Source: Thermoanaerobaculia bacterium
GTDB lineage: Bacteria; Acidobacteriota; Thermoanaerobaculia; Gp7-AA8
Length of the DNA: 64,000 nucleotides
Assembly: GCA_036261885.1 (NCBI GenBank)
Contig: DATAJY010000005.1
Coordinates: forward strand, 152,720 to 216,719
Reading direction: 5' to 3'
Positions 38,432 through 61,385 of this stretch are shown here, piece by piece. Made by a program: the position numbers and the translations under genes. The notes beneath the pieces are model-generated. The model ran no database searches. It was not told the origin of the DNA and saw only the letters and a program-made list of their open reading frames with translations. Within the stretch, counting starts at the first letter, position 1. Every line of letters begins with the position of its first letter.

Positions 38432-38475
38432 TTGTGCTGGAATTGAAATGCTGCTTTCTATACTAGCTGCCTTCA
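38432..38475. promoter_or_regulatory. AT-rich divergent promoter region between the kinase and LuxR genes
   Basis: 'tttgtgctggaattgaaatgctgctttctatactagctgcct' is ~40% GC, sharply below background, and is flanked by two divergent start codons. Confidence 0.35.
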
Positions 38476-39194
38476 TGAGATTGGACGCGCTCCGTCGTTT
38501 GTGGGAACGGCTTCGTGCGAGCGGCGGCAGCGCGCACGTGCTCGACAGTGACTCATTCACCGAAAGCGAGCGCGCCGTCGGGCGGATGGTGCTGCCGCTC
38601 ATCGCCGATCTCGAGAGCGCGCGGCAGACCATCGCCGATCTCACGGAGAAGGCGCTGGCCATCGATGCGCTGCTGCGTCTCGTCCCTTCCGCCGCGCTCG
38701 TCGTCGACGAACAGGGACGGCTGTTCTCCTCCAACGATGCGGCCAAGGCGCTCTTCGGCGGTCCGGCCATTCCGCTGTCGATCGTCGAGGTCGCGTCGCG
38801 CGCGTTGCGTTCCGGAGAAGAACGCGAATGCGATGCTGTCGCGCACCCGCGCCGCTCCGGCAGTTCGCTGCGCGTCGTGCCGGCGGACGTGGAACGGCGC
38901 GAGTCCGGACCCGGCGTCGTGTTTCTGGTCGCACCGGAAGGAGACGGCGGCGTCGATGAAGACGAAGTGGCGCAGCGTCTGCGGCTGACTCCGATGCAGG
39001 CCCGCGTGGTCTCGCTCGTCGCGCGCGGACTCTCGAATCGCGAAGTGGGCGAGCGCCTCGGTCTGTCGATCGAGACCGTGCGCAAACATCTCGCCGCCGC
39101 GTATCAGAAGACCGGCGTTCCCAATCGCGCCGGTGTCGTTGCGCTCGCCTATGGCGCGCGCTTCGGCGCGCGTCCGCCGCTCGATCTGATGTAA
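38476..39194 (+). CDS. LuxR-family transcriptional regulator (239 aa)
   Basis: C-terminal HTH 'LTPMQARVVSLVARGLSNREVGERLGLSIETVRKHLAAAYQKTGV'. ATG at 38476 ('MRLDALRRLWERL...'). Confidence 0.7.
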
Positions 39195-43666: not shown

Positions 43667-43783
43667 CCCGATGTGCTGCTTTGATTCCCTCCCGCCCGGT
43701 GCTCGTTGCTTTCTTCCTTCCATCCGTGCTTTAGTGCGTTCCGGTCCCGCTCACAATTCAAGAATCGAAAAAGGGAGGCATCC

Positions 43784-50400: not shown

Positions 50401-51268
50401 GCCGCTTCTCGAGCAGATGCATGATGAGGTTGTCGAGCGCCGGCGGCACGTTTCGCACGACCTCGGACGGGCGCTGCGCGTTGCGCGTCAGATGCTGGAA
50501 CAGCACGTCGCCCGCGGAGGTGCCGTCGAACGGCGGCACGCCGGTGACGATCTCGTAGAGCATCACACCGAAGGAATAGAGATCGGAGCGCGCGTCGACG
50601 AGCTCGCCGCTGGCCTGTTCGGGCGATGCGTACAACGCGGTGCCGAGCATCTGTCCGGCGATCTCGAGCACCTCGCGGCCGCTGTGATCGTGATGGCGGC
50701 CGACCAGACCGAAGTCGACGAGCACCGGTCGATCGCCCGCGCGCACGAGCACGTTCTCCGGCTTGATGTCGCGATGAATGATGCCGTGCGCGTGAATGTG
50801 CGCGAGCACGCGCGCGAGCCGGTACATGAGCGTCAGCACACGCGGCAGATCGCTGCGCACTTCCGTGCGCGCATGCACGGAGGACGGCAGCACGCCCGAC
50901 ACCGGAATGAACGGATGCACCTGCTCGGTGACCGCGCGGTCGTACTCGGCGAGGCCGAGCAGCTCGCCGAGGGAGTGCGCCTCGAGCAGTTCCATGACGT
51001 ACCACGGCACACCCTTTTCGGTGCCCTCGTCGAGAATCCGCACGACGCCGGGATGCTGCAGCCGGCGCAGCGTCTGAATCTCGCGGCGGATGAATCCGAA
51101 CAGATCGGCCATCTCCGCCGACGCGATCTTGAGCGCCACCGCCGCGCCGTCGTAAAGACGCAGCGCGCGATACACGACTCCCATTCCGCCGCGCCCGATC
51201 TCGTACTCGATCTCGTACGGACCGATTGCACGCGGCGGGACCGGATCGCTGTGCGCAGCGACGCTCAT
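47480..51268 (-). CDS. STAND-type multidomain Ser/Thr protein kinase: Hanks kinase, then AAA+/P-loop NTPase, then TPR-like C-terminal region (1262 aa)
   Basis: 'GRGGMGVVYRA', 'AVALK' and 'HRDIKPENVLV' for the kinase. P-loop 'VVIGGESGIGKTSVAS'. Long helical repeat C-terminus. Confidence 0.75.
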   Translation of the reverse strand: MSVAAHSDPVPPRAIGPYEIEYEIGRGGMGVVYRALRLYDGAAVALKIASAEMADLFGFIRREIQTLRRLQHPGVVRILDEGTEKGVPWYVMELLEAHSLGELLGLAEYDRAVTEQVHPFIPVSGVLPSSVHARTEVRSDLPRVLTLMYRLARVLAHIHAHGIIHRDIKPENVLVRAGDRPVLVDFGLVGRHHDHSGREVLEIAGQMLGTALYASPEQASGELVDARSDLYSFGVMLYEIVTGVPPFDGTSAGDVLFQHLTRNAQRPSEVVRNVPPALDNLIMHLLEKRRADRLGYADDVAALLVDAGAQYDADFGSEPATYLYRPEIVGRRETVEALRACLPDRRKRSGAFVVIGGESGIGKTSVASVFGREATLAGFGVIAGECMALATSGDVIGGQALHPLRPLFRAIADHCRGDAPRAVESILGPRLAVLRDHDPAFEALVELRSEETPRIPPEIACRRLFSDVAETLHAFARERPHVLVIDDLQWADEVTLRFLSTLDADFFANTPLMLLGTYRADEAGPDLRALLARPHVVKMPLKRLAETCVHDIVRSMLAAPGAPESFLRFVANQCEGNPFFVAEYLRAAVAERLLYREGGHWHVQSARSHSFSDLGLPRTLRNLVARRLGSISASAGRVVEAAAVLGREVDEALLIATCGENACDAQSAIAELLELYVMDPADRGIRFAHDKLREAAYDRIAPERLATLHARAAQAIESACTDDDSLRANAAALAHHWDVAGQHGKAIHYYSTAGELAITRGACRDARDLLRRAISLDKRNADAEPVLARRIRHARWHRLLGRAGIGLGDLDSTAEHLNTSLELLGVKLPRGTRAWQALMLLEITRQAMHLLLPRAFYRARSTKTLVLKELSDSAVVVAELSYYLTNETAMVASALIGVNIGERLTGTPANAFGYFILGFACGMMGLHRLSNRYLTIARDTAATENDLFVLANVAQARLHFHTARCDWKEAPAAAEEATLLSHRCGDPQALELLETHLGHWEFYTGKLSASADRFARLAEFARKRNNQQHEAWGHIDRARALIFMGDLETALDLLDASRRLVGINDALSMVVMDALRALTLLHLNQLDAAVEAADTAYASASKNRPTFFEMLRGFSSPAEVYLEVWVRARYRDPLEAARMRRTVSALLRKLRHYAARAPILAPSTLRLAGVAQCLDGSERRGTSLLRKAAATAARLGLLMEEGIALYELTRHAVDPRERADCRERARTIFHSIGCELYLRKMAERANRSTGGTRQRATADASE

Positions 51269-51373: not shown

Positions 51374-52120
51374 TCACGGATAGTTCGAATCGGAGCAGCC
51401 GGAACCGAACGTCTCGTCCAGCACAACGGAAGCCTTCGGAATCTGAGGAGCGGGAGGGAAGACCGCGGCGAGGATGTAGTGAAGCAGAAAGTGACTGCCC
51501 GTGTGCTCGGTCTCGATGGTCTCGTTCGGATCGCGATTGCTGATCGTGATCGTCGCCGGCACGAGCACGCGCAGCGGCGAGGAAACCGGCGGCACCACCG
51601 GATTCGTGGCCCCGGGCAACGGCTCGATGTGCAGTCGGATGTGCGTCGGCGTCGGCGGGCCGATCACTTCGACGGCATCCATCTCCAGTTGCGACGCCAC
51701 CGCGCCATCTTCATCGATGAACGACGAGAGCACTCCCTGATCGGTGTCGAAGAACGCACCGATGGCCGGCCACGATCCGTCGAACACATTCGTCGATGGA
51801 ACTCCCAGCGTGAGGATCGGATTCATCAGCTGCGTGAGGTTCGGAGTGAGATTGATGAAGTCCTGCGTCAGATCCAGTCCCGTTCCCGGCGTCTCGACGC
51901 GAATCCGAACGCCCTGCAGCGTGAAGGTCTGCGGGCCGTCGTGATCGACCGTCGAGGAGACGCTCATCGTGGCGATGTGAGGCGGGATCAGAATGTCGTT
52001 GATGATGTTGAGACCACTCGCGTTCACCAGCACGACGCGATGGTTCACGTCGAGTCGCGAGTTGGCCTCCCTGGAGAAATGCGTGCAGATGCCCTGGAAT
52101 TGAACGGTCACGTTTCCCAT
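51374..52120 (-). CDS. hypothetical protein (248 aa), co-transcribed downstream of the anti-sigma/CHAT gene
   Basis: ATG at 52120, 16 bp after the upstream stop. 'MGNVTVQFQGICTHFSREANSRLDVNHRVVLVNASGL...' carries no assignable motif. Confidence 0.5.
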   Translation of the reverse strand: MGNVTVQFQGICTHFSREANSRLDVNHRVVLVNASGLNIINDILIPPHIATMSVSSTVDHDGPQTFTLQGVRIRVETPGTGLDLTQDFINLTPNLTQLMNPILTLGVPSTNVFDGSWPAIGAFFDTDQGVLSSFIDEDGAVASQLEMDAVEVIGPPTPTHIRLHIEPLPGATNPVVPPVSSPLRVLVPATITISNRDPNETIETEHTGSHFLLHYILAAVFPPAPQIPKASVVLDETFGSGCSDSNYP

Positions 52121-52136: not shown

Positions 52137-55100
52137 TCACAGCCGGCGAATGCGCGTGGTGAGTACAGCGACGGACCTCCACGCCGTGCGATGCGGATCG
52201 CGCATCGATTCGAGTTGCGCGCGGCGCACCGCCTCGGCCGCGCCCGCTCCCGCGGCGAGATGGCGATGAACGGTCAGAAAGAACAGCCGGGCATCGCTGT
52301 CCGCCACCGGCGTGAGCGTCCCGATCACGTCTCCCGCTCCGGCGGCGAGAAATGCGCCGCCGAGGCTGAGTGCGCGCGTCGGGCCCGCATGCGGCGCGCG
52401 CAACGTGTCGCACGCCGCGAGCACGACTACCGGCGCGTGCCGGAGTGAGGCACCGGAAAGCCGCCGCCACGAAACGCGATCGCGTCGTTCGGCCGGCCCG
52501 AGCAACAGCACCGTCTCCGCGATCGCATCGTTCGCGCTGTGACCGGACAGATGAATGACGTCCGCATTCCGCGCGCGCTCGAGGAAAACCGGCAGCGTGC
52601 TTCGCTCGCCGGCGAGGTCCGCTCCGCTCGCGTACAGACGGCGGATCTCCGCCAGCTCTTCGACACTGCCCGGAAGACCGACGTCCTCCGACGCCAGCTC
52701 GACGCCGAGCATCGAGCGCGGTGTGCGGCGCTGCGTCTCCGCGCGCAACGCGCTCGCCGACGGAGCGACGGAGAGCGGCATCTGTTCGACGAACATCCGC
52801 CGCGTCACCGAGTCGGTGAGCGCCGCGAACGGAACGCGCGCCAGTCGCGGATCGGCGATGACGATGACTTCGTTTGCGCGCGCCAGCAGCGGCGCCGCGG
52901 GGCGAATGAGAAGGTCGTAGAGCGACGTCGATGCGTTTCGATCGCCCTGAACCGCGGCGTCGGCAAGCGCGGGCAACGTCTCTTCCGCGACCGGCTGCCT
53001 GTGCACCTCCATCCGATCGGACGTGATGCAGAACGCGATCACCTCGTGCGGCAACACCACCAGTTCGAGCAGCGCGTTTCCGCTGTCCGCGAGGCGTTCT
53101 TGAAGGGCGAGCCGCGTGGCGGGCGGCGTCGCAGGACCGATCTGCGCGAGCGAACGATCGGCATACGCGAATGCAGCATCGTGATCGCCGCGCGCGAGCG
53201 CGAGCTCGATGGCCTCGCGATACAGCGCCGAGCCGGCGTCGAGCACGCCGGTGCCGCTGACCGCGTCGCTGAAACGGACCGGCTGTCGTTCGTACGCGGC
53301 AATGCCGTCGTCGAGATCCCGTCGCGCGCCGATTCGATCTTCGACACGCAATCGCGCGCGCGCTCGCAGAAGATGACATTCGGCGATGAACGGCGCGGCT
53401 TCGAGCGTGCGATAGCCGTCGATCGCTTTGCCGAGGAACTCGGCGGCACGCCGCGGATCGTCCGCGAGCAGCGCTGCACCGGTGGCGAAGTCGACATCGG
53501 TGAGCGCTCTGGCGCGCAGCCCGGCATCGGAGATCTTCGCCGCCCTTTGTGCCGCCTCGCGTGCGGCAACGGCCGCGGCGCGAGGGTCACCGAGTTGCGC
53601 GTCGAGCACGGCCGCGCGCACGAGCGTGTTGGTGCTCATCACGTCGTTCGCGGTGCGGCTCTGTGCCGCGCGTTCGAGTTGCGCGAGCGAGCGCGCCACC
53701 GCGAGCTGGCCGTTGCGCAATTCCACCTGCACCGCTCCGCCGAGGCTCACCGGCAGGCGGTCGCCGCGTCCGCTCGTGCTCAACATCGTGAACGAGCGGA
53801 TGCGCGCGGCCCACGCGTCATCGGGGCGGCCGAGCGCGTTGAGCACGTCGGCCTGCAGCGTTTCGAGGAAGCCGCAGTTGCTCGATTCGCCGAGATCGCA
53901 GAACGCGCGCGCCGCATCGCGCACCAGCGGCAGCGCGCCGCTCCAGTCGTCGTCGTTCATCAGACAGAGCGCGAGCTCCCAGCGTACGTGCGCGGCGAGA
54001 GCGGGGAAGCGGCGTTCGTGCAGCAGCGCTTCGAGCTCCGTGCGCGCGCCGCGGATGTCGCCGCGATCGAAGCGCGTGTTCGCGGCGTAGTAACGCGCCA
54101 CGAGCGCCATCGGATCGTTTGCGAAGAGCTGGGCCGCGCGGCGCAACTCGCTCTCCGCTTCCGCGGGAGCTTGCCGGCTGTAGGCGATGCGTCCGCGTCG
54201 ATAGGCGACGTGCGCCTCGGCGATCTCGCGTCGTCGTTCGGGCGCGGCGTCATCGATCGCGCGTACGGCGTCGCGCAACAGCGACTCGCCGGAGATGCGC
54301 AGGAGCGCGTCGCCGATGGCGCGTGCAATCGTCAACTGCCGCGAAGCCTCGGCCGCATCGGCGTGCAACGCGGCCTCGCCCCAGAAGCCGAGGTACTCGC
54401 CTTCGCCGAACGCGCGACTCTGCTGGCGGAACTGCTGCACGATCGAGGAGATCGTGGCGACGTCGCCTGCCGCGACCGCGCGTTCGAGCCGCGGCCGTTC
54501 CGAGCGGAACTGCGATTCTCCGGTCGTCGCCGGAAGCCGCGCGAGATGCTGACGCGCTTCTTCCGCCCACTTCGACGACGCGTCGAGCTCGAGGTACTGC
54601 TGCCACGCCTCCCGAGCGGCCTGCAGGAGGCCGAGGCGCTCGAGGATCAGCGCGCGATTGAAGCGCGCCTCGGGGAGACGCGGATCGATGCGCAAGGCGG
54701 CGTCGACGTCCGCCAGTGCCATCGGAATGAGCGAGGGCGCGCGCCCGCGTTCCGCCGCCGCCAGTCGTGCCGCGGCAAGATCGCTGCGCACCTTCGCATC
54801 GTTCGGCGACGCTTCCGCCGCGGCGCGAAGTTTTTCCACCGCATCCTTTGGCCGCCCCGTCAACAGGAGCGCGAGACCGGCGCCCTGTTGTGCGGATGCG
54901 GATGGATCGTGCGCGGCCTGATCGAGAATCTCGCCCGCCGCGCCGACGAGCTTCATCTGTTCCGGATCGATGGCGCCCTCGGTCGCGCGCATCGGACCGC
55001 GGAACGGCGTCCAGGGAAAACCGCCGGTTACGCGCGGCTCGATGAGCCGCTCGGATCGCGGCGACAGCGACACGAGTCGTCGAATCGGATCGCGCTGCGA

Positions 55101-55346
55101 CAGGCGATCGCGAAACAGCAGCAGACCGGCGATCGCAATCGCCAGCACCGCCGCCGCGGCGAGCAATTGCAGCGGCAAACGGCGCGACGCCGGCGAACGA
55201 ATGGCCTCGACGTCTGCCGTGCAGTCATTGCAGTGCCTCAGGTGCGCGAGCACCGGTGCGATCTCCTGCCGCGTCAACTTGCCCTCCGCGAACGCCGCCA
55301 GCGTTTCCGCATCGAGGCACGACCGCTGATTCCTGTCGCGACTCAT
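52137..55346 (-). CDS. membrane anti-sigma factor (zf-HC2) with periplasmic TPR repeats and C-terminal CHAT protease domain (1070 aa)
   Basis: Internal ATG at 55346 overlapping the sigma stop. Zinc-finger 'HLRHCNDC'. TM 'LPLQLLAAAAVLAIAIAGLLLF'. Long TPR-like helical region. CHAT dyad 'VIHLSGHSAND' and 'VVVLAACDT'. Confidence 0.7.
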   Translation of the reverse strand: MSRDRNQRSCLDAETLAAFAEGKLTRQEIAPVLAHLRHCNDCTADVEAIRSPASRRLPLQLLAAAAVLAIAIAGLLLFRDRLSQRDPIRRLVSLSPRSERLIEPRVTGGFPWTPFRGPMRATEGAIDPEQMKLVGAAGEILDQAAHDPSASAQQGAGLALLLTGRPKDAVEKLRAAAEASPNDAKVRSDLAAARLAAAERGRAPSLIPMALADVDAALRIDPRLPEARFNRALILERLGLLQAAREAWQQYLELDASSKWAEEARQHLARLPATTGESQFRSERPRLERAVAAGDVATISSIVQQFRQQSRAFGEGEYLGFWGEAALHADAAEASRQLTIARAIGDALLRISGESLLRDAVRAIDDAAPERRREIAEAHVAYRRGRIAYSRQAPAEAESELRRAAQLFANDPMALVARYYAANTRFDRGDIRGARTELEALLHERRFPALAAHVRWELALCLMNDDDWSGALPLVRDAARAFCDLGESSNCGFLETLQADVLNALGRPDDAWAARIRSFTMLSTSGRGDRLPVSLGGAVQVELRNGQLAVARSLAQLERAAQSRTANDVMSTNTLVRAAVLDAQLGDPRAAAVAAREAAQRAAKISDAGLRARALTDVDFATGAALLADDPRRAAEFLGKAIDGYRTLEAAPFIAECHLLRARARLRVEDRIGARRDLDDGIAAYERQPVRFSDAVSGTGVLDAGSALYREAIELALARGDHDAAFAYADRSLAQIGPATPPATRLALQERLADSGNALLELVVLPHEVIAFCITSDRMEVHRQPVAEETLPALADAAVQGDRNASTSLYDLLIRPAAPLLARANEVIVIADPRLARVPFAALTDSVTRRMFVEQMPLSVAPSASALRAETQRRTPRSMLGVELASEDVGLPGSVEELAEIRRLYASGADLAGERSTLPVFLERARNADVIHLSGHSANDAIAETVLLLGPAERRDRVSWRRLSGASLRHAPVVVLAACDTLRAPHAGPTRALSLGGAFLAAGAGDVIGTLTPVADSDARLFFLTVHRHLAAGAGAAEAVRRAQLESMRDPHRTAWRSVAVLTTRIRRL

Positions 55347-56197
55347 TGCCGATCCTCGGCCGGAGCGGTCCGGTCTTCTTCTACCGACTGCCGGAACGGC
55401 TCCGCTTTCCCGCTCTCGAGTCCGAAGTCCATCTCCTGCGATGCCTCGCCGATGACGCTCGAGAGTGCATTCGCGTCGAGCTCCGCGGCGATGAGCGCGG
55501 CGCGCAGTTTCGCGAGCAGCGTCTGAATGCGGCGATAGAGCGGACGCTGGGGGAGGCGCAGCATGCGCGAGATGTCGGCGATGCTCATGGACGAGCCGTA
55601 ATGGAAGCGAAGGATCATCGCGTCTTCGTCCGCCCACGTGTCGATGGTGCGCCGCACGATCTCGCTCGCACGCGCCGACAGCCGGCGCGCCTCGGCGGAT
55701 AGCGCGCGTCCATCGGCTCGCTCGCGGCTCGGCAGCGCTTGTTCATCGGTGTCCTCCAGTGCGACGGCGCGCAACCGGCCGGGCCGCTGCGGCAGTTGTC
55801 GCGCCATGGCCGCGATTTCCTCATGCGTCAGCGCGTAGCGGGCCTGAACGATCGGGATCACTCCCTCGAGCGGGCGGCCGTCGCGCACGAGCAGTTTCTC
55901 GAGCAGGACACCGCCGGGTCCGAATCGCGTCGCCTCCGCGGAGGGACGCCAACGCCCGAATTCCTCATTGCGTTGATCGGAGAGCAGCCGCCGGATGACG
56001 ACGCTCAGATAGCCGGCCAGTGAGGAGCGCCCTTCCCAGCGGCGAAGAACGACGTAGTCGTTCTCCATCAACGCCAGTCGCGCCGAAGAGGAGAAATCCT
56101 CCGCCTCGGCATCGCGCAGGCGAGCCGATCGACAGACCTCGCGGATGACGCGGTCGATGACCGTCAGGTTGTCCCTGAACAGGCGTTCCGGATCCAT
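55343..56197 (-). CDS. ECF-type sigma-70 factor with C-terminal extension (284 aa)
   Basis: Internal ATG at 56197 ('MDPERLFRDNLTVIDRVIREV...'). Region-4 HTH 'MSIADISRMLRLPQRPLYRRIQTLLAKLR'. Translationally coupled to the anti-sigma gene. Confidence 0.65.
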   Translation of the reverse strand: MDPERLFRDNLTVIDRVIREVCRSARLRDAEAEDFSSSARLALMENDYVVLRRWEGRSSLAGYLSVVIRRLLSDQRNEEFGRWRPSAEATRFGPGGVLLEKLLVRDGRPLEGVIPIVQARYALTHEEIAAMARQLPQRPGRLRAVALEDTDEQALPSRERADGRALSAEARRLSARASEIVRRTIDTWADEDAMILRFHYGSSMSIADISRMLRLPQRPLYRRIQTLLAKLRAALIAAELDANALSSVIGEASQEMDFGLESGKAEPFRQSVEEDRTAPAEDRQ

Positions 56198-56334
56198 TGC
56201 TGAAGGGAAGTACCGAGAAAATGATACGCCGCCTTCCACAAAAACGGCGTGGCGGAATCGTCTTGTACGGGAGCCGATGGAAAAACGCGGGCCTTCGTCA
56301 GTCGTGGTGATGGAGGAGAGAACAATGCCCGCTA

Positions 56335-57344
56335 AAACGTCCAATACGCCCATCACCCCCGCACCGATGATTTATGCGTCGTTGTTCGGCACCTGCAATC
56401 CCAACGATTCCACAATTGCGTCTTACATCGCCGCCGCGACCGATCTCGCGGAGTCGGGATTCGCAACCGTGAACGTGTGGCAGTTTCACGTCGACGGCTC
56501 CGGCAACCTGCTCGTCAATGCCGCCGCACCCGGCCCGGCGCTGATTTCCGGCGGCTCGCTGCAGAGCGGGTTTTCGTACGTTCCGGAAGTCATCGCCGCC
56601 CTCACTGCAGCCGGCGGCAAGGTGACGACCATCCGGGCCACGATCGGCGGCTGGGGACTCGACAACACGTTCAACAACATGGTGCAGCTGATCAATCAAT
56701 TCGGCACCGGACCCGCGAATCCGCTCTATCAGAACTTCGTGGCATTGAAGGCGCTCGGCATCAGCGGCATCGATCTCGATCTCGAGCCGGCCGGCGGAGA
56801 GGTGATTCACGACTATCCGTATTACATCGGCCCGCTCGCGCAATTGATCACCATGATTGCGGAGCTCGGCCTGAGCACGACGTTCTGTCCGTACCAGAAC
56901 GAGAATTTCTGGCTGGTGCTCCTCGCCGCCGTCTGTGCACAGAACGACGGCGCGCAGCCGGTGCAGTCGATGAACGTGCAGTGCTATTCCGGAGGCGCCG
57001 GCAATACACAGAGCGGATGGATCGAGGCGCTGAAACGCTTTCCCTCGCTCGGAATCGGAATGGCCGGAACGGTGGAAGAGACGTTCGGCATCAGCGATCC
57101 GGCCTCGTTCGTCGTTCCCGGATTCGGTGTGCTGTCGTCGGGGCAGCCACAATGCCCGAACGTCATTCAACAGGCATTGACGGCGCAAGGGTTCGCCCGG
57201 AAGGGCATCAGCGCCGCCTATCTGTTCAATTACGCCAACATCCAGACCATTCAGCAGGACGGGAGCTGCCCTGACGACAATGCGACCGCCGATTACGCGA
57301 ATGCACTCATCGCCGGCATCAACGCGGTGAACGGTGTGAGCTGA
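56335..57344 (+). CDS. glycoside hydrolase family 18-like (chitinase-like TIM barrel) protein, no signal peptide (336 aa)
   Basis: GGAGGAG RBS. GH18-like 'TIRATIGGWG' and DxDxE-like 'GISGIDLDLEP'. Ends 20 bp before the S8 protease gene. Confidence 0.5.
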
Positions 57345-57363: not shown

Positions 57364-59235
57364 ATGAATCCCTCAGAAACAACGGTCACGCATTCGGCGT
57401 GGCGTGCGGAGCTCGAACGAATCTCGGCCGGTGCGAGGGGCGACGCGCGCGTGCGTGTGGCGATGATCGACGGGCCGGTCGATCGGACCCATCCGGCATT
57501 ACAGGGCGCCACGCTCGAATTTCTCGAGTCTCCTGCACCGAACGCCTCCGCGTCGCACGGAACGTCGGTCGCCAGCGTGCTGTTCGGCCAGCCGGGAAGC
57601 GCGATTCACGGCATCGTTCCGCACTGTCACGGTCTGATCGTTCCGGTTCTTCGCGAGAGCAATGGAATGCTCGCCGCCTCCCAACTCGATCTGGCGCGCG
57701 GCATCGTGCTGGCGCTGGCTCATCGCGCGTCGATCATCAACATCAGCGCCGGACAATTCGACCCCGGCGGCGAAGCGCATCCTTATCTCGCCGACGCGCT
57801 TCGTCACGCGCGGGAACAGGGCGCGCTCGTGATCGCGGCGGCCGGAAACGACGGCTGCCATTGTCTGCACGTGCCGGCCGCGGATCCGTCGGTGCTGGCG
57901 GTCGGAGCGATCGACGACAGTGGACGTCCGCTGCCGATGAGCAACTGGGGCGCGGCCTATCGCGACCACGGCATCGTCGCACCGGGAAGCGTTCTCAGTG
58001 CCCAGACCGGCGGTGGAGCGGCTGTACACACCGGCACGAGCTGGGCCACCGCCGTCGTCTCCGGCTTCGCTGCGCTGCTCTTGTGCGAGCAACTGCAGTG
58101 CGGCGATGAGCCGGACGTGCGTCGCGTGCGCGAGGCCATTCTCGAGACCGCGGACCGCTGTCATGAAGAGACGGACCACGACTGTCAACGCTTGCTCGAG
58201 GGACGGCTCAATGCAGCCGCCGCCTGGAGACGAATCAGGGAGAGAAGGAGGACACCGATGATCGAGGAGATGCAGTCTGTCGTACCGGCCGCAATGGCCG
58301 TACCGATTTCCACTTTTGAGGTGGCCGCGGGCCCGGCGCCGCCGCCACGCGTCACGCCGAGCTGCGGATGCGGCGGAGGAAGTGCCGACTCCTGCAGTTG
58401 CCGCGACAAGGAAAAACCGGCGCCGGAGAGCAGCTGTGCGTCGAAGAAAGCTCCCCCTCCGCTCGTCTATGCGCTCGGCCAGCTCGGCTACGATTTCGCG
58501 AGCGAAGCGCGGCGCGACTCACTGATCCAGCAGGGGCTCCACAATCCCTACGATCCGGTGCAACTGCTCAATCATCTGGAGTCCAATCCCGCCGCGGCCG
58601 CCGCCGTCACCTGGACGCTCGTGCAGGATTCGACGCCGATTTACGCGATTCAACCGGTGGGACCGTTTGCGGCGGAGACGTATGCACTGCTGCGCAAATT
58701 TCTCGGACAGCAGCTGCACGAAGGCGTCGAACGGATTTCGGTGCCGGGGTGGGTCGGCGGAAAAGGCGCGCTGTCCAATGGGCAGATCCTGCCGGTAATC
58801 GTGCCGGACCCGCGCGGTATGTTCAGCTGGACGACGCGCGCGCTGCTCGAAGCGGTGCTCGGTTCGCGCGAAGACGAGGAGAGCTCGCGCGAGCGCGCCA
58901 GCGAACTGGCGAACTTTCTCGATCGCATCTACTTCGAAGTGCGCAACCTCGGCCTGCTGCCGCAGGAGCGGGCCATCAATTACGCCGCCACGAACGCGTT
59001 CCAGCTCGGCGAGGTCTACACCCGCAATGCGAAAGCGGGCCTCAAGCTCGACGTCATCGGCGCCGAGCGCAGCCCGATCTGCAGACCGGAGTCCGACTGC
59101 TGGGACGTGAAGCTGACGTTCTTCCATCCCGCGCGGCGGCTGGAACAGGCGAGAGAAGTGTTCCGCGTGACCGTCGATGTGAGCGACGTCGTTCCCGTGA
59201 CGGTCGGCCCCGTGCGGAGCTGGCACGTCTACTGA
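57364..59235 (+). CDS. cytoplasmic S8 (subtilisin-family) serine peptidase with Cys-rich linker and PatA/PatG-like C-terminal domain (623 aa)
   Basis: Catalytic triad contexts 'VAMIDGPVD' (Asp), 'SHGTSVASV' (His) and 'GTSWATAVVSG' (Ser). No signal peptide. Linker 'SCGCGGGSADSCSCRDKEK'. C-domain motif 'LVYALGQLGYDFASEARRDSL', which I recall as characteristic of the cyanobactin-protease PatA/PatG C-terminal domain (from memory, unverified). Confidence 0.75.
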   Translation: MNPSETTVTHSAWRAELERISAGARGDARVRVAMIDGPVDRTHPALQGATLEFLESPAPNASASHGTSVASVLFGQPGSAIHGIVPHCHGLIVPVLRESNGMLAASQLDLARGIVLALAHRASIINISAGQFDPGGEAHPYLADALRHAREQGALVIAAAGNDGCHCLHVPAADPSVLAVGAIDDSGRPLPMSNWGAAYRDHGIVAPGSVLSAQTGGGAAVHTGTSWATAVVSGFAALLLCEQLQCGDEPDVRRVREAILETADRCHEETDHDCQRLLEGRLNAAAAWRRIRERRRTPMIEEMQSVVPAAMAVPISTFEVAAGPAPPPRVTPSCGCGGGSADSCSCRDKEKPAPESSCASKKAPPPLVYALGQLGYDFASEARRDSLIQQGLHNPYDPVQLLNHLESNPAAAAAVTWTLVQDSTPIYAIQPVGPFAAETYALLRKFLGQQLHEGVERISVPGWVGGKGALSNGQILPVIVPDPRGMFSWTTRALLEAVLGSREDEESSRERASELANFLDRIYFEVRNLGLLPQERAINYAATNAFQLGEVYTRNAKAGLKLDVIGAERSPICRPESDCWDVKLTFFHPARRLEQAREVFRVTVDVSDVVPVTVGPVRSWHVY

Positions 59236-59265
59236 GAATTTTCCCGACAAACGAAAGGAGCGATC

Positions 59266-59589
59266 ATGGACATCCCGATTCAAGCGTCACCCGCGCGGCG
59301 CGGCACGATGCAGCGCATTCCTCTCCACGACGACGCGGCCGTTCTGGCCGCATGCAGTCTGTCCGAGCAGATCAGCTGTTGTGCGCTGGCGGCGGGTCTC
59401 GTCGCCGCGTGCGCCTCCGTCGGAACCGGCATCGGCATCATCGCCTGCGCGGCCGCCATCGGTGGCTACGTCGGCTCCGATTGCGAAGACTGCGCGTGTG
59501 GCGAGCCGCTGCGCGCGAGCGTCTGTGGCTGGGTCGACATCATCAACAGCATCGCGCCCAACACCATCCCGGTGCCGTCGTTCTGCTGA
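59266..59589 (+). CDS. small Cys-rich hydrophobic peptide, putative RiPP/bacteriocin precursor A (107 aa, 10 Cys)
   Basis: Strong RBS 'aaaggagcgatcATG'. Leader-like 'MDIPIQASPARRGTMQRIPLHDD', then Cys/Gly/Ala-rich core 'ISCCALAAGLVAACASVGTGIGIIACAAAIGGYVGSDCEDCACGE...SVCGW...SFC'. Confidence 0.55.
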   Translation: MDIPIQASPARRGTMQRIPLHDDAAVLAACSLSEQISCCALAAGLVAACASVGTGIGIIACAAAIGGYVGSDCEDCACGEPLRASVCGWVDIINSIAPNTIPVPSFC

Positions 59590-59600
59590 AGGAGGCAACG

Positions 59601-59822
59601 ATGAATCTTCCCAATCAAGTCCCCTCTGTCGCCAGGTCCGGCGCCGCAACGAGCATCCCGCCGGCCGTGCTCGCACAAGGCTGCTCCGTCGGCCAGGGCT
59701 TCCTCTGCGCCGGCACCATCCTCGCGTGCCTCGGCGCCTGCTGCTCCGGCCTCTGCCTCCTGTCTCCGCTCTGCATCGCCTGCATGGGCGGCGCATACAC
59801 GGAATGCAAAGACTGCTTCTAG
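59601..59822 (+). CDS. small Cys-rich hydrophobic peptide, putative RiPP/bacteriocin precursor B (73 aa, 10 Cys)
   Basis: RBS 'gaaggaggcaacgATG'. Leader 'MNLPNQVPSVARSG' is paralogous to peptide A's 'MDIPIQASPARRG'. Core 'GCSVGQGFLCAGTILACLGACCSGLCLLSPLCIACMGGAYTECKDCF'. Confidence 0.55.
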   Translation: MNLPNQVPSVARSGAATSIPPAVLAQGCSVGQGFLCAGTILACLGACCSGLCLLSPLCIACMGGAYTECKDCF

Positions 59823-59833
59823 AGACCGCATGC

Positions 59834-59866
59834 GTGACGACGGACGCGAATGACGGCCGTCGTCAC
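59834..59866. terminator. bidirectional terminator-like hairpin between convergent genes
   Basis: GTGACGACGG ... CCGTCGTCAC 10-bp stem, between the peptide B stop and the hydroxylase stop. Confidence 0.45.
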
Positions 59867-60708
59867 GCTGCATTCCGTCGCGTGCGACTCCTCCCGGTCA
59901 CGATCGCCGATGGCGCGGAGCGAAACGGCAGCGTGAGGAGCCAGCGCAGCGTTTGCCGCGTCTGATTTTGCAGATCCGGCAACCCGATTCCGGGATGCTC
60001 GCTGCTCGCTTCGACGCGATACGTGCCGAACAGCCGGTCCCACCACGGAATGCTGAAGCCGAAATTCGTATCGCGATCGCGGCGCTCCGCCGAATGGTGG
60101 ATCGAGTGCATGGCCGGCGTCACGATCAACCAGCGCAGCGCGCGATCGATGCGGCGGGGAAGGTGGACGTTCGCGTGATTGAACAGCGACGTCACCGCCA
60201 GCAGCGTTTCGAACACGATCACGGCCGGCACGCTGGCGCCGATCACCGAGACCGCGGCGAGCTTGATGCCCATCGATAACAGCAGTTCGAGCGGATGAAA
60301 ACGCGAGCCGAGGGTCACGTCGAAATCGATGTCGGTGTGGTGCACCTTGTGGATGGCGAAGAGGAGCGGAACGGAATGAAAGAGCACGTGCTGCGCGTAA
60401 ATCACGAGATCGAGCAACACGATCGCCAGTACGAATTCCATCGCCGCGGGCCAGTTCGCCACCTGCAGCAAACCGGCGCCGTTCGTCGCCGACCAGAGCG
60501 CCGCACTGACGGCGCCGATCGGGAAGAGCAAGCGCAGGACGGCCGTATTCAGCAGCGTCAGGCCAAGGTTGGAAACCCAGCGGCTGCGGCGTGCGACGCG
60601 GCGCGGCCGCTCCTCGAACACCGTTTCCGCGACGGCCATGACGACGAATACGGCGACGCACGATCCGGCGCGCAACATCGCGGCGTCGCCTTCGAGCCAG
60701 CCGTTCAT
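59863..60708 (-). CDS. fatty-acid hydroxylase / sterol desaturase superfamily membrane enzyme (281 aa)
   Basis: Internal ATG at 60708 overlapping the ArsR-rhodanese stop. His boxes 'HSVPLLFAIHKVHHTD' and 'HSIHHSAERRD'. Hydrophobic N-half. Confidence 0.7.
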   Translation of the reverse strand: MNGWLEGDAAMLRAGSCVAVFVVMAVAETVFEERPRRVARRSRWVSNLGLTLLNTAVLRLLFPIGAVSAALWSATNGAGLLQVANWPAAMEFVLAIVLLDLVIYAQHVLFHSVPLLFAIHKVHHTDIDFDVTLGSRFHPLELLLSMGIKLAAVSVIGASVPAVIVFETLLAVTSLFNHANVHLPRRIDRALRWLIVTPAMHSIHHSAERRDRDTNFGFSIPWWDRLFGTYRVEASSEHPGIGLPDLQNQTRQTLRWLLTLPFRSAPSAIVTGRSRTRRNAA

Positions 60709-61385
60709 CCGCGCCTCGCCGCCGGCTTGTCGCCGGCCACGACCTTCAATCCCGCCGCTCGCCATTCGAGCACGCCTTCTTCGAGCCGCTTTGCGCGGAA
60801 GCCGCGCCGCGACAGCAGCCGCACGGCGTCGGCCGAGAGCATGCAATACGGACCGCGGCAATACGCCACGACCTCCTGATCCTTCGGCAGCTCTTTGAGG
60901 CGCGCCGCAAGTTCCTCGAGCGGAATCGAAACCGCGCCGGAGAGGTGGCCGGCGATGTATTCCTCGCGCGGACGGACGTCGATGAGCATCGCTTCGCTCG
61001 AGCGCAGCCGGGAGACGAGCGCCTGCCGGTCGACGCTTTCGATCCCTTTCGTTTTCGCGAGCAGCGCCGCGCGCGCCTCCTGCAGTTCTTCGAGCTGGGA
61101 TTCGCCGAGCTCGCGCAATCGCACGAGCAGATCGCCAACGCCGTCATTGGCCAGGCGATACGTCACGAACAGTCCCTGCTTTTCGGAGACGACGAGTTGG
61201 GCCTGCCGGAGCAGCTGCAGATGTTGCGAGGCGTTGGCGACGGTCTGTCCCGTAGCCACGGCCAGCCGTTCCACCGTTCGCGGCCCCTGCGACAGCGCAT
61301 CGAGCATCTCCACCCGCTTCGGTGCGGCAAACGCTTTTCCGAGCCGGGCCAGCTGCGCGAAGAGTGTTTCCTTCGGTTCGGTCAC
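60705..61385 (-). CDS. ArsR/SmtB-family HTH regulator fused to a rhodanese (sulfurtransferase) domain (226 aa)
   Basis: Winged-helix 'VEMLDALSQGPRTVERLAVATGQTVANASQHLQLLRQAQLV'. Rhodanese 'LIDVRPREEYIAGHLSGAVSIP' with active-site loop 'VVAYCRGPYC'. GTG start. Confidence 0.7.
   Translation of the reverse strand: MTEPKETLFAQLARLGKAFAAPKRVEMLDALSQGPRTVERLAVATGQTVANASQHLQLLRQAQLVVSEKQGLFVTYRLANDGVGDLLVRLRELGESQLEELQEARAALLAKTKGIESVDRQALVSRLRSSEAMLIDVRPREEYIAGHLSGAVSIPLEELAARLKELPKDQEVVAYCRGPYCMLSADAVRLLSRRGFRAKRLEEGVLEWRAAGLKVVAGDKPAARRG

What the first reader, a model, noticed from the sequence alone, without database searches (positions are those of the whole stretch)
57364..59822. Putative novel RiPP-like system: PatA/PatG-like cytoplasmic S8 protease plus two paralogous 10-Cys precursor-like peptides
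A signal-peptide-less subtilisin with an intact Asp/His/Ser triad carries a C-terminal domain with the motif 'LVYALGQLGYDFASEARRDSL', which I recall from cyanobactin PatA/PatG proteases. It is followed, 30 bp and then 11 bp downstream with strong RBSs, by two small ORFs. Their N-termini are clearly paralogous ('MDIPIQASPARRG' vs 'MNLPNQVPSVARSG', a leader-like segment). Their C-terminal cores are hydrophobic and Gly/Ala/Cys-rich, with exactly 10 Cys each. That leader-plus-core layout is the hallmark of ribosomally synthesised, post-translationally modified peptide (RiPP) precursors. No cyclodehydratase, radical-SAM or LanM gene is in the window, so the modification chemistry, if any, is not that of known cyanobactin, TOMM or lanthipeptide families. 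Possibilities include a disulfide-rich or otherwise Cys-tailored peptide processed by the protease. The protease also has a Cys-rich linker, 'SCGCGGGSADSCSCRD'. A GH18-like gene immediately upstream may belong to the same operon.
Basis: partly seen in the sequence, partly recalled or inferred. Interest (0 to 1): 0.85.

Follow-up and report, generated by a model that had tools for sequence, protein, structure and literature searches.

The report
Cyanobactin-type protease with cysteine-rich precursor peptides
A soil acidobacterium carries a leader-cutting protease of the cyanobactin (PatA) type followed by two small cysteine-rich peptide genes with cyanobactin-style leaders; the same protease-plus-peptide module, apparently undescribed, occurs with no other shared enzyme in many bacterial phyla and some archaea.

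Summary
ORF 57364-59235 is a PatA-type cyanobactin protease (TIGR03895, 610 bits against a cut-off of 421). It has an intact Asp/His/Ser triad and the PatA/PatG C-terminal DUF.

Two paralogous 10-Cys genes follow it, 30 nt and 11 nt apart, each with a strong ribosome-binding site. Both are under purifying selection (dN/dS 0.13-0.36) and keep all their Cys in orthologues.

Each peptide has three parts. It starts with the N-terminal box of cyanobactin precursor leaders (LPxQxxPVxR). A variable linker and a PatA-like cleavage site follow ([GA]-[VI]-x-A-[ASQ]; GVEAS in one orthologue). The rest is a hydrophobic Cys-rich core.

In 67 of 83 PatA-like loci from Acidobacteriota, Planctomycetota, Proteobacteria, Clostridia, cyanobacteria and archaea, leader-bearing ORFs lie just downstream of the protease. 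No other gene is shared. Cores are hypervariable, and 75 of 85 have an even Cys count.

Most likely this is a minimal, protease-only relative of cyanobactin pathways that makes leader-trimmed, disulfide-stapled peptides. No macrocyclase, heterocyclase or other tailoring enzyme is in the window. The upstream "GH18-like" gene is not a conserved part.

I found no description in the searchable literature. Processing, disulfides, export and function are inferred, not shown.

The parts
57364..59235 (+). PatA-type cyanobactin-family leader protease, 623 aa: S8 domain, Cys-rich linker, PatA/PatG C-terminal DUF. No signal peptide.
   Evidence: TIGR03895 at 610 bits against a cut-off of 421. Pfam S8, PatG_D and PatG_C. 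PDB matches: PatA 4H6V at 261 bits, PatG-DUF 4UVQ at 207 bits. 100% identical to an NCBI Thermoanaerobaculia MAG protein.
57430..58239 (+). Subtilisin (S8) catalytic domain, residues 23-292. Triad D36 (57469), H65 (57556), S226 (58039); oxyanion N162 (57847).
   Evidence: Aligns end to end with the PatA protease domain without a macrocyclase insertion. The catalytic residues are invariant in alignment A2.
58360..58407 (+). Cys-rich linker SCGCGGGSADSCSCRD, residues 333-348.
   Evidence: Read from the sequence. The family consensus has 'PSxCGCGxK' before the DUF, and C358 is nearly invariant. Its role is unknown.
58462..59226 (+). PatA/PatG domain of unknown function (DUF), residues 367-621. 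It begins with LVYALGQLGYDFASEARRDSL.
   Evidence: PatG_D and PatG_C. 207 bits to the PatG-DUF structure 4UVQ. The function of the DUF is unknown in the literature (PMC4259220).
59254..59260 (+). Ribosome-binding site of peptide A (AAAGGAG, 5 nt before the ATG).
   Evidence: Read from the sequence.
59266..59589 (+). Precursor peptide A, 107 aa. N-box MDIPIQASPARR (res 1-12), variable linker, predicted cleavage site AVLAA|C (after res 29, nt 59352/59353), then a 78-aa core with 10 Cys.
   Evidence: Orthologues P0003-5 and L003 7873-8196 keep all 10 Cys. The L003 orthologue has GVEAS|CS at the aligned position. dN/dS is 0.13-0.36. Predicted core: 7.58 kDa, GRAVY 0.98, pI 4.05.
59588..59595 (+). 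Ribosome-binding site of peptide B (GAAGGAGG). It overlaps the stop codon of A and lies 5 nt before the ATG.
   Evidence: Read from the sequence.
59601..59822 (+). Precursor peptide B, 73 aa. N-box MNLPNQVPSVAR (res 1-12), linker, predicted cleavage site AVLAQ|GC (after res 26, nt 59678/59679), then a 47-aa core with 10 Cys (8 family-conserved plus 2 extra).
   Evidence: Orthologues P0001, P0002 and L003 8210-8428. The B-family alignment has 8 conserved Cys and a conserved C-terminus CxDC[FL]. AF2 gives a disordered leader and a helix-loop-helix core at pLDDT 74-80. dN/dS is 0.16-0.30.
59832..59868 (.). Perfect 12-bp inverted repeat (59832-59843 and 59857-59868) after peptide B. It is a likely transcript end shared with the convergent gene.
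   Evidence: Read from the sequence. RNA fold -30.2 kcal/mol, z = -3.3, and none of 200 shuffles folded as well. There is no T-tract, so it is not a canonical intrinsic terminator.
56325..57344 (+). It ends 19 nt before the protease start and is probably co-transcribed here, but it is lineage-specific and not part of the conserved module.
   Evidence: Found only in L001 among 82 related loci. Pfam GH18 at E = 0.2, 11.7 bits against a cut-off of 29.6. AF2 pLDDT 44. Foldseek returns only generic TIM-barrel matches with E > 2e-3.

Best explanation
This is a minimal, protease-only relative of cyanobactin biosynthesis.

The two small genes encode precursor peptides built from three parts:
1. An N-terminal 12-residue box, M-x-[LI]-P-x-Q-x-x-[PS]-[VA]-x-R. 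It is homologous to the conserved N-terminal box of cyanobactin E-peptide leaders.
2. A poorly conserved linker that ends in a PatA-type recognition and cleavage site ([GA]-[VI]-x-A-[ASQ]).
3. A hydrophobic, acidic core with 10 Cys.

Proposed mechanism:
- The cytoplasmic PatA-type subtilase recognises the leader. I infer that the N-box is the docking element, possibly for the DUF.
- It cuts after A29 of peptide A and after Q26 of peptide B. This releases a 78-aa (7.6 kDa) core and a 47-aa (4.6 kDa) core.
- No macrocyclase, heterocyclase, prenyltransferase or other tailoring enzyme takes part.
- The Cys pair into disulfides, five per peptide. In B these staple a helix-loop-helix hairpin. Oxidation would occur once the peptide leaves the reducing cytoplasm.
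- The end products are probably secreted or membrane-active peptides of bacteriocin or toxin type.

Shown:
- Protease family and subtype.
- Gene order and conservation of the module.
- Homology of the leader N-box.
- The cleavage-site motif at the family level.
- Absence of any conserved partner enzyme.
- The even-Cys bias.

Inferred:
- Actual cleavage and its exact position.
- Disulfide formation.
- The export route.
- Biological activity.
For: Protease:
- TIGR03895 at 610 bits.
- PatA subtype: 261 bits to PatA against 106 bits to the PatG macrocyclase, with no insertion.
- Triad intact.

Module conservation:
- The order protease, then A, then B is found in the window, L001, L002 and L003, at 63-90% protease identity.
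- The flanking genes differ between these loci.

Leader motif across related loci:
- Among 83 PatA-like loci, a start-codon-anchored N-box regex gives 112 ORFs in 67 loci on the protease strand within 4 kb downstream.
- Only 11 hits fall elsewhere, although the downstream space is only 14% of what was searched.
- The strict PatA site G[ILVM]x[AP]S occurs at residues 13-45 in 33 of the 112, against 1.03 expected from shuffles.
- PatA cleaves after GLEAS (PMC4282754).

N-box homology:
- A profile of the N-box matches canonical E-peptide leaders ('LPNQGKPVIR', upstream of LAELSEEAL and G[AV][ED]AS) in L075, L077 and L079.
- TIGR03678 gives weak hits at the same position.

No other partner enzyme:
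- All-against-all clustering of neighbouring genes finds only the protease shared across loci.
- No tailoring enzyme and no second PatA/PatG homologue is in the window.

Evidence for disulfides:
- 75 of 85 Cys-rich cores have an even Cys count. After clustering, 28 of 33 clusters do (p = 3e-5).
- Counts of 6 and 10 are common, which fits pairs better than Cys4 metal sites.
- The 8-Cys B-type core also occurs as 7 tandem repeats in a 693-aa protein with a signal-peptide-like N-terminus (P0127).
- AF2 models a disordered leader and a helical-hairpin core.

Remote homologues:
- Remote A and B homologues found by profile search lie directly after PatA-like proteases in L083, L084, L087 and L089.
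Against: - There are no expression, processing or mass data.
- The window peptides do not carry the strict GxE[AP]S site. They have Ala at P5 and Ala or Gln at P1, so the cut site rests on alignment to orthologues.
- No exporter, immunity gene or thiol-disulfide oxidoreductase is linked in any locus. How a very hydrophobic, acidic peptide leaves the cell and what it does are therefore open.
- PatB proteins carry the same N-box, are not known to be substrates, and are non-essential (PMC4663559). The N-box alone therefore does not prove substrate status.
- PatG-DUF did not bind PatE' in vitro (PMC4259220). This weakens the idea that the DUF docks the leader.
- Only 64 kb of a 234-kb contig of a MAG was seen, so tailoring enzymes could act in trans.
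- The AF2 model is of only moderate confidence, and no solved-structure analogue was found.
Confidence: 0.62

Rival explanations
1. These are true tailored RiPPs. The protease only removes the leader, and the Cys are chemically modified (thioether, thiazoline, sactionine or a new chemistry) by enzymes encoded elsewhere in the genome.
For: Many Cys-rich precursors are substrates of radical-SAM, YcaO or Lan enzymes (general knowledge). Only 64 kb of the MAG was examined. L083 has unannotated 273-aa and 307-aa genes interleaved with the peptide genes.
Against: No tailoring enzyme is in the window. No gene other than the protease is shared across 83 loci from many phyla. The peptides lack the RSI heterocyclase recognition sequence (LAELSEEAL) that canonical E-peptides have. 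The strong even-Cys bias fits simple pairing.
Confidence: 0.15
2. The small proteins are PatB-like accessory, regulatory or inhibitory partners of the protease, not its substrates. The N-box is a protein-protein docking tag.
For: PatB/AcyB/McaB proteins (TIGR04220) sit in the same position directly after PatA. They start with the same M-R-L-P-x-L-S-x-P-V-K-R box. One Oscillatoria/Lyngbya peptide is intermediate, with a weak PatB hit (E = 5e-4) plus 4 C-terminal Cys.
Against: The window peptides show no TIGR04220 similarity even at E <= 10. Unlike PatB, the Cys-rich peptides carry a PatA-type cleavage motif between the N-box and the core. Their cores are hypervariable and multi-copy (1-5 per locus), which is the pattern of substrates and products rather than of a conserved accessory protein.
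Confidence: 0.1
3. After leader removal the peptides stay reduced in the cell and act as metal- or redox-buffering thiol peptides, like metallothioneins or metallophores.
For: Cys makes up about 13% of the cores on average across loci and 13-21% in the two window cores. A cytoplasmic protease and no exporter are consistent with an intracellular product. A metal-related role has been proposed for patellamides (PMC13266932, title and abstract listed).
Against: The window cores are extremely hydrophobic (GRAVY 0.98 and 1.21), unlike soluble metallothioneins. Counts of 6 and 10 Cys dominate alongside 8, which is not a Cys4-site pattern. The B-type core also occurs as repeats in a protein with a secretion signal.
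Confidence: 0.08
4. These are ordinary small membrane proteins that lie next to the protease by coincidence and have no functional link to it.
For: Each core has a 19-residue stretch with Kyte-Doolittle mean >= 2.0.
Against: Adjacency to a PatA-like protease holds in every informative context. These are 4 close loci, 4 of 6 remote loci, and 67 of 83 family loci. The shared N-box is homologous to cyanobactin leaders.
Confidence: 0.03

Closest known systems
Cyanobactin pathways (pat, tru, ten and related: PatA, PatB, PatC, PatD, PatE, PatF, PatG)
   Same: The N-terminal protease is of the same family and subtype (S8 + DUF, TIGR03895). The precursor carries the same N-terminal leader box (LPxQxxPVxR) and an RSII-like cleavage site (G[LVI]x[AP]S-type). 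The peptide genes are in the same operon as the protease. At the family level the leader is conserved and the cores are hypervariable, with several precursor genes per locus.
   Different: There is no PatG macrocyclase or oxidase, no PatD heterocyclase, no PatF prenyltransferase and no PatB or PatC. The leader lacks RSI (LAELSEEAL), and no RSIII (AYDG) follows the core. There is one long core of 47-78 aa with 10 Cys, instead of 6-20-aa cassettes. The host is an acidobacterium. In a rough NJ tree, canonical PatA (with PatB) forms one cyanobacterial clade nested inside the wider, Cys-rich-associated diversity.
Linear cyanobactins (aeruginosamide, viridisamide type)
   Same: The product is not macrocyclised, and a PatA-type cleavage defines the N-terminus (my own knowledge of the class).
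   Different: Those are 3-5-residue peptides with prenyl, methyl and thiazole modifications. Their clusters retain G-type protease, heterocyclase and prenyltransferase genes. None of these genes is present here.
PatB/AcyB/McaB family (TIGR04220)
   Same: The position is the same, the first gene after the A protease. The N-terminal box is the same.
   Different: PatB has a conserved, Cys-poor body (…VDLENG…DLVHIRMDLLHGANYNDP…) and no cleavage motif. The window peptides do not match TIGR04220.
Leader-cleaved, disulfide-stabilised unmodified peptides (class II bacteriocins; plant alpha-hairpinins; conopeptides)
   Same: The logic is an N-terminal leader removed by a dedicated protease, with a Cys-paired core as the product. 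The predicted fold of B is a helical hairpin stapled by Cys.
   Different: There is no double-glycine leader, no C39 peptidase-ABC exporter and no immunity gene. The protease is a cytoplasmic subtilase. The cores are acidic and very hydrophobic rather than cationic. There is no detectable sequence or fold match.

Membership tests
Cyanobactin biosynthetic system | A-type (PatA) N-terminal protease: subtilase domain plus C-terminal DUF | tested here: met
   TIGR03895 at 610 bits against a cut-off of 421. Pfam S8, PatG_D and PatG_C. PatA 4H6V at 261 bits and PatG-DUF 4UVQ at 207 bits.
Cyanobactin biosynthetic system | G-type (PatG) C-terminal protease/macrocyclase | tested here: not met
   tblastn of the protease against the whole window finds no second homologue (next best E = 0.008 over 51 aa). 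The one protease present is PatA-like and has no macrocyclase insertion. The rest of the MAG was not examined.
Cyanobactin biosynthetic system | E-type precursor peptide (leader with RSI, cores flanked by RSII and RSIII) | tested here: inconclusive
   The N-terminal leader box is homologous and an RSII-like site is present by alignment. The window peptides hit no precursor model (TIGR03678, TIGR04446, NF042906, PF19155) even at E <= 10. They lack LAELSEEAL and AYDG-type motifs.
Cyanobactin biosynthetic system | Conserved short B and C proteins | tested here: not met
   No TIGR04220 hit for the window peptides at E <= 10. There are no other small conserved ORFs between the protease and the convergent gene. 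No PatC model was searched for by name.
Cyanobactin biosynthetic system | Heterocyclase (PatD/YcaO) and/or prenyltransferase (PatF) | tested here: not met
   Pfam scans of all large ORFs of the window show neither. A PatD-like gene appears only in 6 cyanobacterial loci of the 83 compared.
Cyanobactin biosynthetic system | Product is an N-to-C macrocycle or a heterocyclised or prenylated short linear peptide | not testable with these tools
   This needs mass spectrometry of the product.
Subtilase (MEROPS S8) | Asp-His-Ser triad in subtilisin order plus oxyanion Asn | tested here: met
   D36, H65, S226 and N162 are present and invariant in alignment A2. They align to the PatA catalytic motifs.
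Class II bacteriocin / double-glycine leader system | GG-type leader and C39 peptidase-ABC exporter | tested here: not met
   There is no GG motif at the leader-core junction. The only ABC transporter genes found in the window are phosphonate-type, judged from the window ORFs by comparison with the Pfam-annotated genes of locus L001. No C39 peptidase or ABC exporter turned up among the ORFs scanned.
Lanthipeptide / sactipeptide-ranthipeptide / TOMM classes | Class-defining enzyme (LanB/C/M, radical SAM, or YcaO) next to the precursor | tested here: not met
   None was found among the window ORFs, and none is conserved in related loci.
Glycoside hydrolase family 18 (upstream 339-aa ORF) | Match to the GH18 profile, including the DxxDxDxE catalytic motif | tested here: inconclusive
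   PF00704 at E = 0.2, 11.7 bits against a cut-off of 29.6, over residues 102-173. No PDB sequence relative. AF2 pLDDT 44, with only generic TIM-barrel fold matches.

The most novel reading that the evidence does not exclude
The protease-only module (PatA-type protease plus N-box leader peptides with hypervariable disulfide-rich cores) is the general and possibly ancestral form of the cyanobactin machinery. It would be a large, unrecognised class of bacterial and archaeal disulfide-rich peptides.

On this reading, canonical cyanobactin clusters are one cyanobacterial offshoot that added a heterocyclase and a macrocyclase. PatB is a degenerate former precursor. The so-far functionless leader N-box and the PatA/PatG DUF form the conserved recognition pair.
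Probability: 0.3. Interest if true: 0.8.

Novelty: new variant of a known kind. Interest (0 to 1): 0.62.

Why it matters
- **A broader cyanobactin toolkit.** If confirmed, the best-studied diversity-generating RiPP toolkit is one branch of a much broader system. That system would be simpler: one protease plus genetically encoded, hypervariable, disulfide-rich peptides. It would be spread over at least eight bacterial phyla and two archaeal lineages. Genome-mining tools probably label such loci 'cyanobactin' with no product in mind; I infer this, since the mining papers I read list the class only as a category.
- **A testable role for three unexplained cyanobactin features.** These are the conserved N-terminal leader box, the PatA/PatG DUF and PatB.
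- **A practical route to products.** The module points to a large source of compact Cys-stapled scaffolds (4-10 Cys, 30-80 aa). Because one enzyme appears to suffice, they should be easy to produce heterologously.

Tried and rejected
**Family scans of the peptides.** Pfam and NCBIfam scans of the two peptides and of 12 diverse family members found no curated family. The only hits were weak ones to cyanobactin leader models.

**Word-indexed homologue search.** It found only 2-3 relatives per peptide. The exhaustive profile search found only 28 representatives at E <= 1e-3. The specific A and B core families are therefore rare even though the leader type is common.

**Are the neighbouring genes part of the system?** I tested the 339-aa ORF, the ECF-like sigma factor, the zf-HC2/TPR/CHAT protein, the 248-aa ORF, the fatty-acid hydroxylase and ArsR-rhodanese. 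This was rejected, because they recur only in the near-identical locus L001.

**GH18 assignment of the 339-aa ORF.** It remains unresolved.

**PatG-type macrocyclase reading of the protease.** Rejected.

**Fold search with the B model.** No meaningful match.

**Promoter and terminator scan.** It showed no sigma-70-like promoter and no canonical terminator around the operon.

**Literature.** They found no paper describing PatA-only, Cys-rich systems. Several searches were swamped by 'Patagonia' or ecology papers. Subscription-only literature was not searchable, so prior description cannot be excluded.


Full report
**1. What is in the sequence**

The region holds three co-directional genes on the + strand.

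ORF 57364-59235 (623 aa) is a subtilase:
- It matches Pfam Peptidase_S8 (res 30-264), PatG_D (368-453) and PatG_C (509-620).
- It matches NCBIfam TIGR03895, "PatA/PatG family cyanobactin maturation protease", at 610 bits against a cut-off of 421.
- Among solved structures, the catalytic half matches the PatA protease domain best (4H6V, 261 bits, residues 23-292 aligned end to end).
- It matches the PatG macrocyclase only weakly (4AKS, 106 bits). The C-terminal half matches the PatG DUF (4UVQ, 207 bits).
- It is therefore a PatA-type, leader-removing enzyme and not a macrocyclase.
- D36, H65, S226 and N162 are in place and invariant in the family.
- There is no signal peptide.
- It is 100% identical to a protein of a Thermoanaerobaculia (Acidobacteriota) MAG.

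Peptide A begins 30 nt after the protease stop (59266-59589, 107 aa). Peptide B begins 11 nt after A (59601-59822, 73 aa). Each has a strong Shine-Dalgarno sequence 5 nt upstream and exactly 10 Cys.

A perfect 12-bp inverted repeat follows B (-30.2 kcal/mol, z = -3.3). After it comes a convergent fatty-acid-hydroxylase gene.

**2. The small ORFs are real, conserved genes and are paralogues**

- A and B share 15 invariant columns, including 7 Cys, over about 73 aligned residues. A has a 27-residue C-terminal extension.
- Orthologues of both exist in two metagenome contigs (L001, L002) and in a Pyrinomonadaceae MAG (L003). Identity is 51-92% and every Cys is kept.
- The order is always protease, then A, then B.
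- dN/dS is 0.13-0.36 for A and 0.16-0.30 for B, against 0.13-0.24 for the protease.
- Between distant orthologues the core is better conserved (0.50-0.74) than the linker after residue 12 (0.24-0.53).
- NCBI calls both genes "hypothetical protein".

**3. Only the three-gene module is conserved**

- The upstream 339-aa ORF, the ECF-type sigma factor, the zf-HC2/TPR/CHAT protein and the 248-aa ORF recur only in the near-identical L001. They are absent from L002, L003 and 79 further loci.
It gives only a sub-threshold GH18 hit (E = 0.2) and a low-confidence alpha/beta model with generic TIM-barrel matches.
- It may be co-transcribed here, with a 19-nt gap to the protease, but it is not part of the system.
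- Pfam scans of all large ORFs in the 64-kb window found no YcaO, radical-SAM, Lan or prenyltransferase enzyme and no C39-ABC exporter.
- tblastn finds no second PatA/PatG homologue in the window.

**4. The wider family**

PatA-like proteases are abundant outside cyanobacteria. More than 2,352 clusters reach E <= 1e-20.

A scan of one genome per species confirmed at least 535 loci. I kept the best 80, at 40-60% identity to the window protease. They come from:
- Acidobacteriota, Planctomycetota and Alpha-, Beta- and Gammaproteobacteria (including Mesorhizobium, Iodobacter and Janthinobacterium)
- Clostridia, Saprospiraceae, Rokubacteria, Poribacteria and Nitrospinaceae
- Actinomadura, two archaeal lineages and cyanobacteria

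I searched six frames of all 83 loci for a start codon followed by x-[LIFVM]-P-x-[QL]-x5-R:
- This gave 127 hits in 73 loci.
- Of these, 112 (in 67 loci) are 35-160 aa ORFs on the protease strand within 4 kb downstream. The median gap to the first one is 112 nt.
- Eleven hits lie elsewhere, although the downstream strand is only 14% of the searched space.
- Several loci that the regex missed have obvious variants, for example L051 "LMPTQSAPVSR" and L052 "MRIPNLSYGSQM".
- Loci carry 1-5 such genes.

All-against-all clustering of neighbouring genes finds nothing shared besides the protease. A PatD-type heterocyclase and canonical E-peptides occur only in a handful of cyanobacterial loci.

**5. 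Anatomy of the peptides**

The conserved N-terminal box has the profile consensus LPnQspPVaRg.
- It matches the leaders of canonical patellamide-type E-peptides present in the fetched cyanobacterial loci. An example is MNKKNILPAQGKPVIRMTAGQLPSHLAELSEEALGGNGAEAS|ITVCACAYDG….
- TIGR03678 gives weak hits at the same leader positions.

About 8-20 residues after the box, many peptides carry G-[ILVM]-x-[AP]-S directly before the Cys-rich part.
- This occurs in 33 of 112 peptides, against 1.03 expected from shuffles.
- Relaxed forms with P1 = Q or A are common.
- This is the RSII-type site. PatA "cleaves after the GLEAS motif" (PMC4282754).

By alignment, the sites in the window lineage are as follows:

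| Locus | Site in peptide A | Site in peptide B |
|---|---|---|
| Window | AVLAA\|CS | AVLAQ\|GCS |
| L002 | GITAA\|CS | GVVAQ\|GCS |
| L003 | GVEAS\|CS (canonical) | EVTAQ\|GCS |

The peptides lack the heterocyclase recognition sequence (LAELSEEAL) and any macrocyclase signal (AYDG).

Predicted products:

| Peptide | Core length | Mass | GRAVY | pI |
|---|---|---|---|---|
| A | 78 aa | 7.58 kDa | 0.98 | 4.05 |
| B | 47 aa | 4.63 kDa | 1.21 | 4.4 |

**6. The cores**

- Of the 112 downstream peptides, 85 (in 53 loci) have at least 4 Cys after residue 18. Nine are PatB-like and 18 are other Cys-poor types.
- Cores are hypervariable. They fall into 33 BLAST clusters, and Cys makes up about 13% of residues.
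- The Cys count is even in 75 of 85 cores. The counts are 4:9, 5:4, 6:30, 7:5, 8:23, 9:1 and 10:13.
- After de-replication, 28 of 33 clusters have an even majority (binomial p = 3e-5).
- This is what all-paired disulfides predict. The many 6- and 10-Cys cores fit Cys4 metal sites less well.

A profile of A and B against 1.84 billion representatives found only 28 hits. They split into A-type (about 105 aa) and B-type (about 72 aa) peptides with the same leader.

B-type cores share 8 Cys in the pattern C-x7-C-x6-C-x3-C-x10-C-x2-C-x7-C-x2-C and a fixed C-terminus CxDC[FL].
- They also occur in Mesorhizobium, Aquibium, Phreatobacter, Phenylobacterium and Calothrix loci.
- One hit, P0127, is a 693-aa protein with a signal-peptide-like N-terminus and seven tandem B-type 8-Cys repeats. 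This argues that the core is an autonomous extracellular disulfide domain.

AF2 on the 20-sequence B alignment gives a disordered leader (pLDDT < 55). The core is a helix(30-48)-loop-helix(56-69) hairpin at pLDDT 74-80. No solved structure resembles it.

Remote A and B homologues whose contigs could be read lie directly after a PatA-like protease (L083, L084, L087, L089). The exception is a short contig with an array of leader peptides (L085/L086).

**7. Mechanism I consider most likely (confidence about 0.6)**

- The cytoplasmic PatA-type protease recognises the cyanobactin-type leader and removes it at the RSII-like site.
- No further enzyme acts on the peptide.
- The released hydrophobic, acidic cores become disulfide-stapled, five bonds each, once outside the reducing cytoplasm.
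- They act as secreted or membrane-active peptides.

Shown:
- Enzyme family and subtype.
- Conserved adjacency of protease and peptides.
- Leader homology.
- Enrichment of the cleavage motif.
- Lack of partner enzymes.
- Cys parity.

Inferred:
- Cleavage and its position in this lineage.
- Disulfides.
- Export. No exporter is linked in any locus.
- Activity.

**8. Rivals**

- (a) Trans-encoded tailoring of Cys, about 0.15.
- (b) PatB-like accessory or inhibitor proteins rather than substrates, about 0.10.
  - This deserves attention because the gene right after PatA in canonical clusters is PatB (TIGR04220, 123 bits), and it starts with the same box, MRLPLLSPPVKRP.
  - PatB is conserved, non-essential and of unknown function (PMC4663559).
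  - Against this rival, the window peptides carry a cleavage motif and belong to a hypervariable, multi-copy class, unlike PatB.
- (c) Intracellular thiol or metal peptides, about 0.08.
- (d) Unrelated small membrane proteins, about 0.03.

**9. Comparison with what is known**

The system works like the first proteolytic step of cyanobactin biosynthesis.

Membership in the cyanobactin class as usually defined fails on tested features:
- There is no G-type macrocyclase in the window.
- There is no B or C protein.
- There is no heterocyclase or prenyltransferase.
- No precursor model reaches its threshold.

I therefore file it as a new variant: a protease-only, long-core, disulfide-rich relative.

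A rough NJ tree of 82 proteases places canonical PatA (with PatB) as one cyanobacterial clade nested within the broader Cys-rich-associated diversity. The window forms its own clade with L001-L003. The caveats are NJ, midpoint rooting and sampling biased towards the query.

The DUF has no known function. PatG-DUF did not bind PatE' in vitro (PMC4259220). Linking the DUF to the N-box is therefore speculation.

**10. Novelty and limits**

- Ten literature searches found no description of such systems. Metagenome-mining papers merely list "cyanobactins" as a class label.
- NCBIfam (June 2026) and Pfam have no model for these peptides.
- Subscription literature was not searchable.
- All functional statements are computational.

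Noticed in passing
L071-L082 (e.g. L077 8083-8334; L080 2238-2447): PatB/AcyB/McaB proteins (TIGR04220) are the conserved but functionless gene right after patA in canonical cyanobactin clusters. They begin with the same N-terminal box (M-R/K-L-P-x-L/Q-S-x-P-V-K-R) as cyanobactin leaders and the Cys-rich peptides. PatB may be a degenerate precursor or a competitor for the same docking site.
   Followed up: partly
P0127 (JGI metagenome protein, 693 aa): This protein has a signal-peptide-like N-terminus and seven tandem repeats of the B-type 8-Cys core (CSFGDWAQCAxxVAECxxTCS…CISCFGSSYNQCxxCL), interspersed with a second Cys-rich repeat. The same core fold is apparently used as a domain in a large secreted protein. 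Its organism is unknown.
   Followed up: partly
window 52137-56356 (-): An ECF-like sigma factor (55343-56356) overlaps the start of a 1166-aa protein. That protein has an N-terminal zf-HC2 anti-sigma motif, TPR repeats and a C-terminal CHAT protease domain. A 248-aa ORF with no family follows (51374-52120). The same set is present in L001.
   Followed up: partly
window 13057-20826 (+): A 2589-aa ORF with high GC3 (0.88) has no Pfam match at E <= 1e-4.
   Followed up: no
window 35912-39085 (-), 43706-45373 (+), 46028-47350 (-), 47480-51268 (-): Two large Ser/Thr protein kinases (one fused to an AAA_16 STAND-type ATPase), a tyrosinase-domain protein and a protein with a Peptidase_S74 intramolecular-chaperone domain lie upstream of the module. 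No link to the module was seen.
   Followed up: no
window 59863-61385 (-): A fatty-acid hydroxylase (OlsE-like) gene and an ArsR-rhodanese fusion gene lie between the peptide operon and the phosphonate ABC transporter genes. In L001 they are absent and the transporter follows the peptides directly. This is an insertion or deletion between close relatives, right at the end of the module.
   Followed up: partly
L059 8368-8800 and L065 3071-3503 (Oscillatoria PCC 10802, Lyngbya): These leader-bearing peptides have a canonical GVEAS site followed by Cys-free, amphipathic 20-25-residue cores (AWYDTLLEVAKKVAPIATTVLGSL). They give a weak hit to the anacyclamide/piricyclamide precursor model. This is a second, non-Cys product type of the same machinery.
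   Followed up: no
L036, L040, L043, L050, L069 (Mesorhizobium and relatives), about 8000-9150: These culturable rhizobia carry three different Cys-rich precursor classes in a row after the protease: 8-Cys B-type, 6-Cys '…CxxCxxxC…CxxxCxxxxC', and 8-Cys 'DCCGAGKCCVGAC…'. They would be convenient experimental models.
   Followed up: no
L083 2785-3606 and 4513-5436: In one metagenomic locus, unannotated 273-aa and 307-aa genes are interleaved with three leader-bearing Cys-rich peptides after the protease. They could be lineage-specific tailoring enzymes.
   Followed up: no
L032 5258-5467 (-) (Thermoproteota archaeon): In this archaeal locus the leader-bearing 8-Cys peptide lies upstream of the protease on the opposite strand. 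This is an exception to the usual downstream, same-strand arrangement.
   Followed up: no
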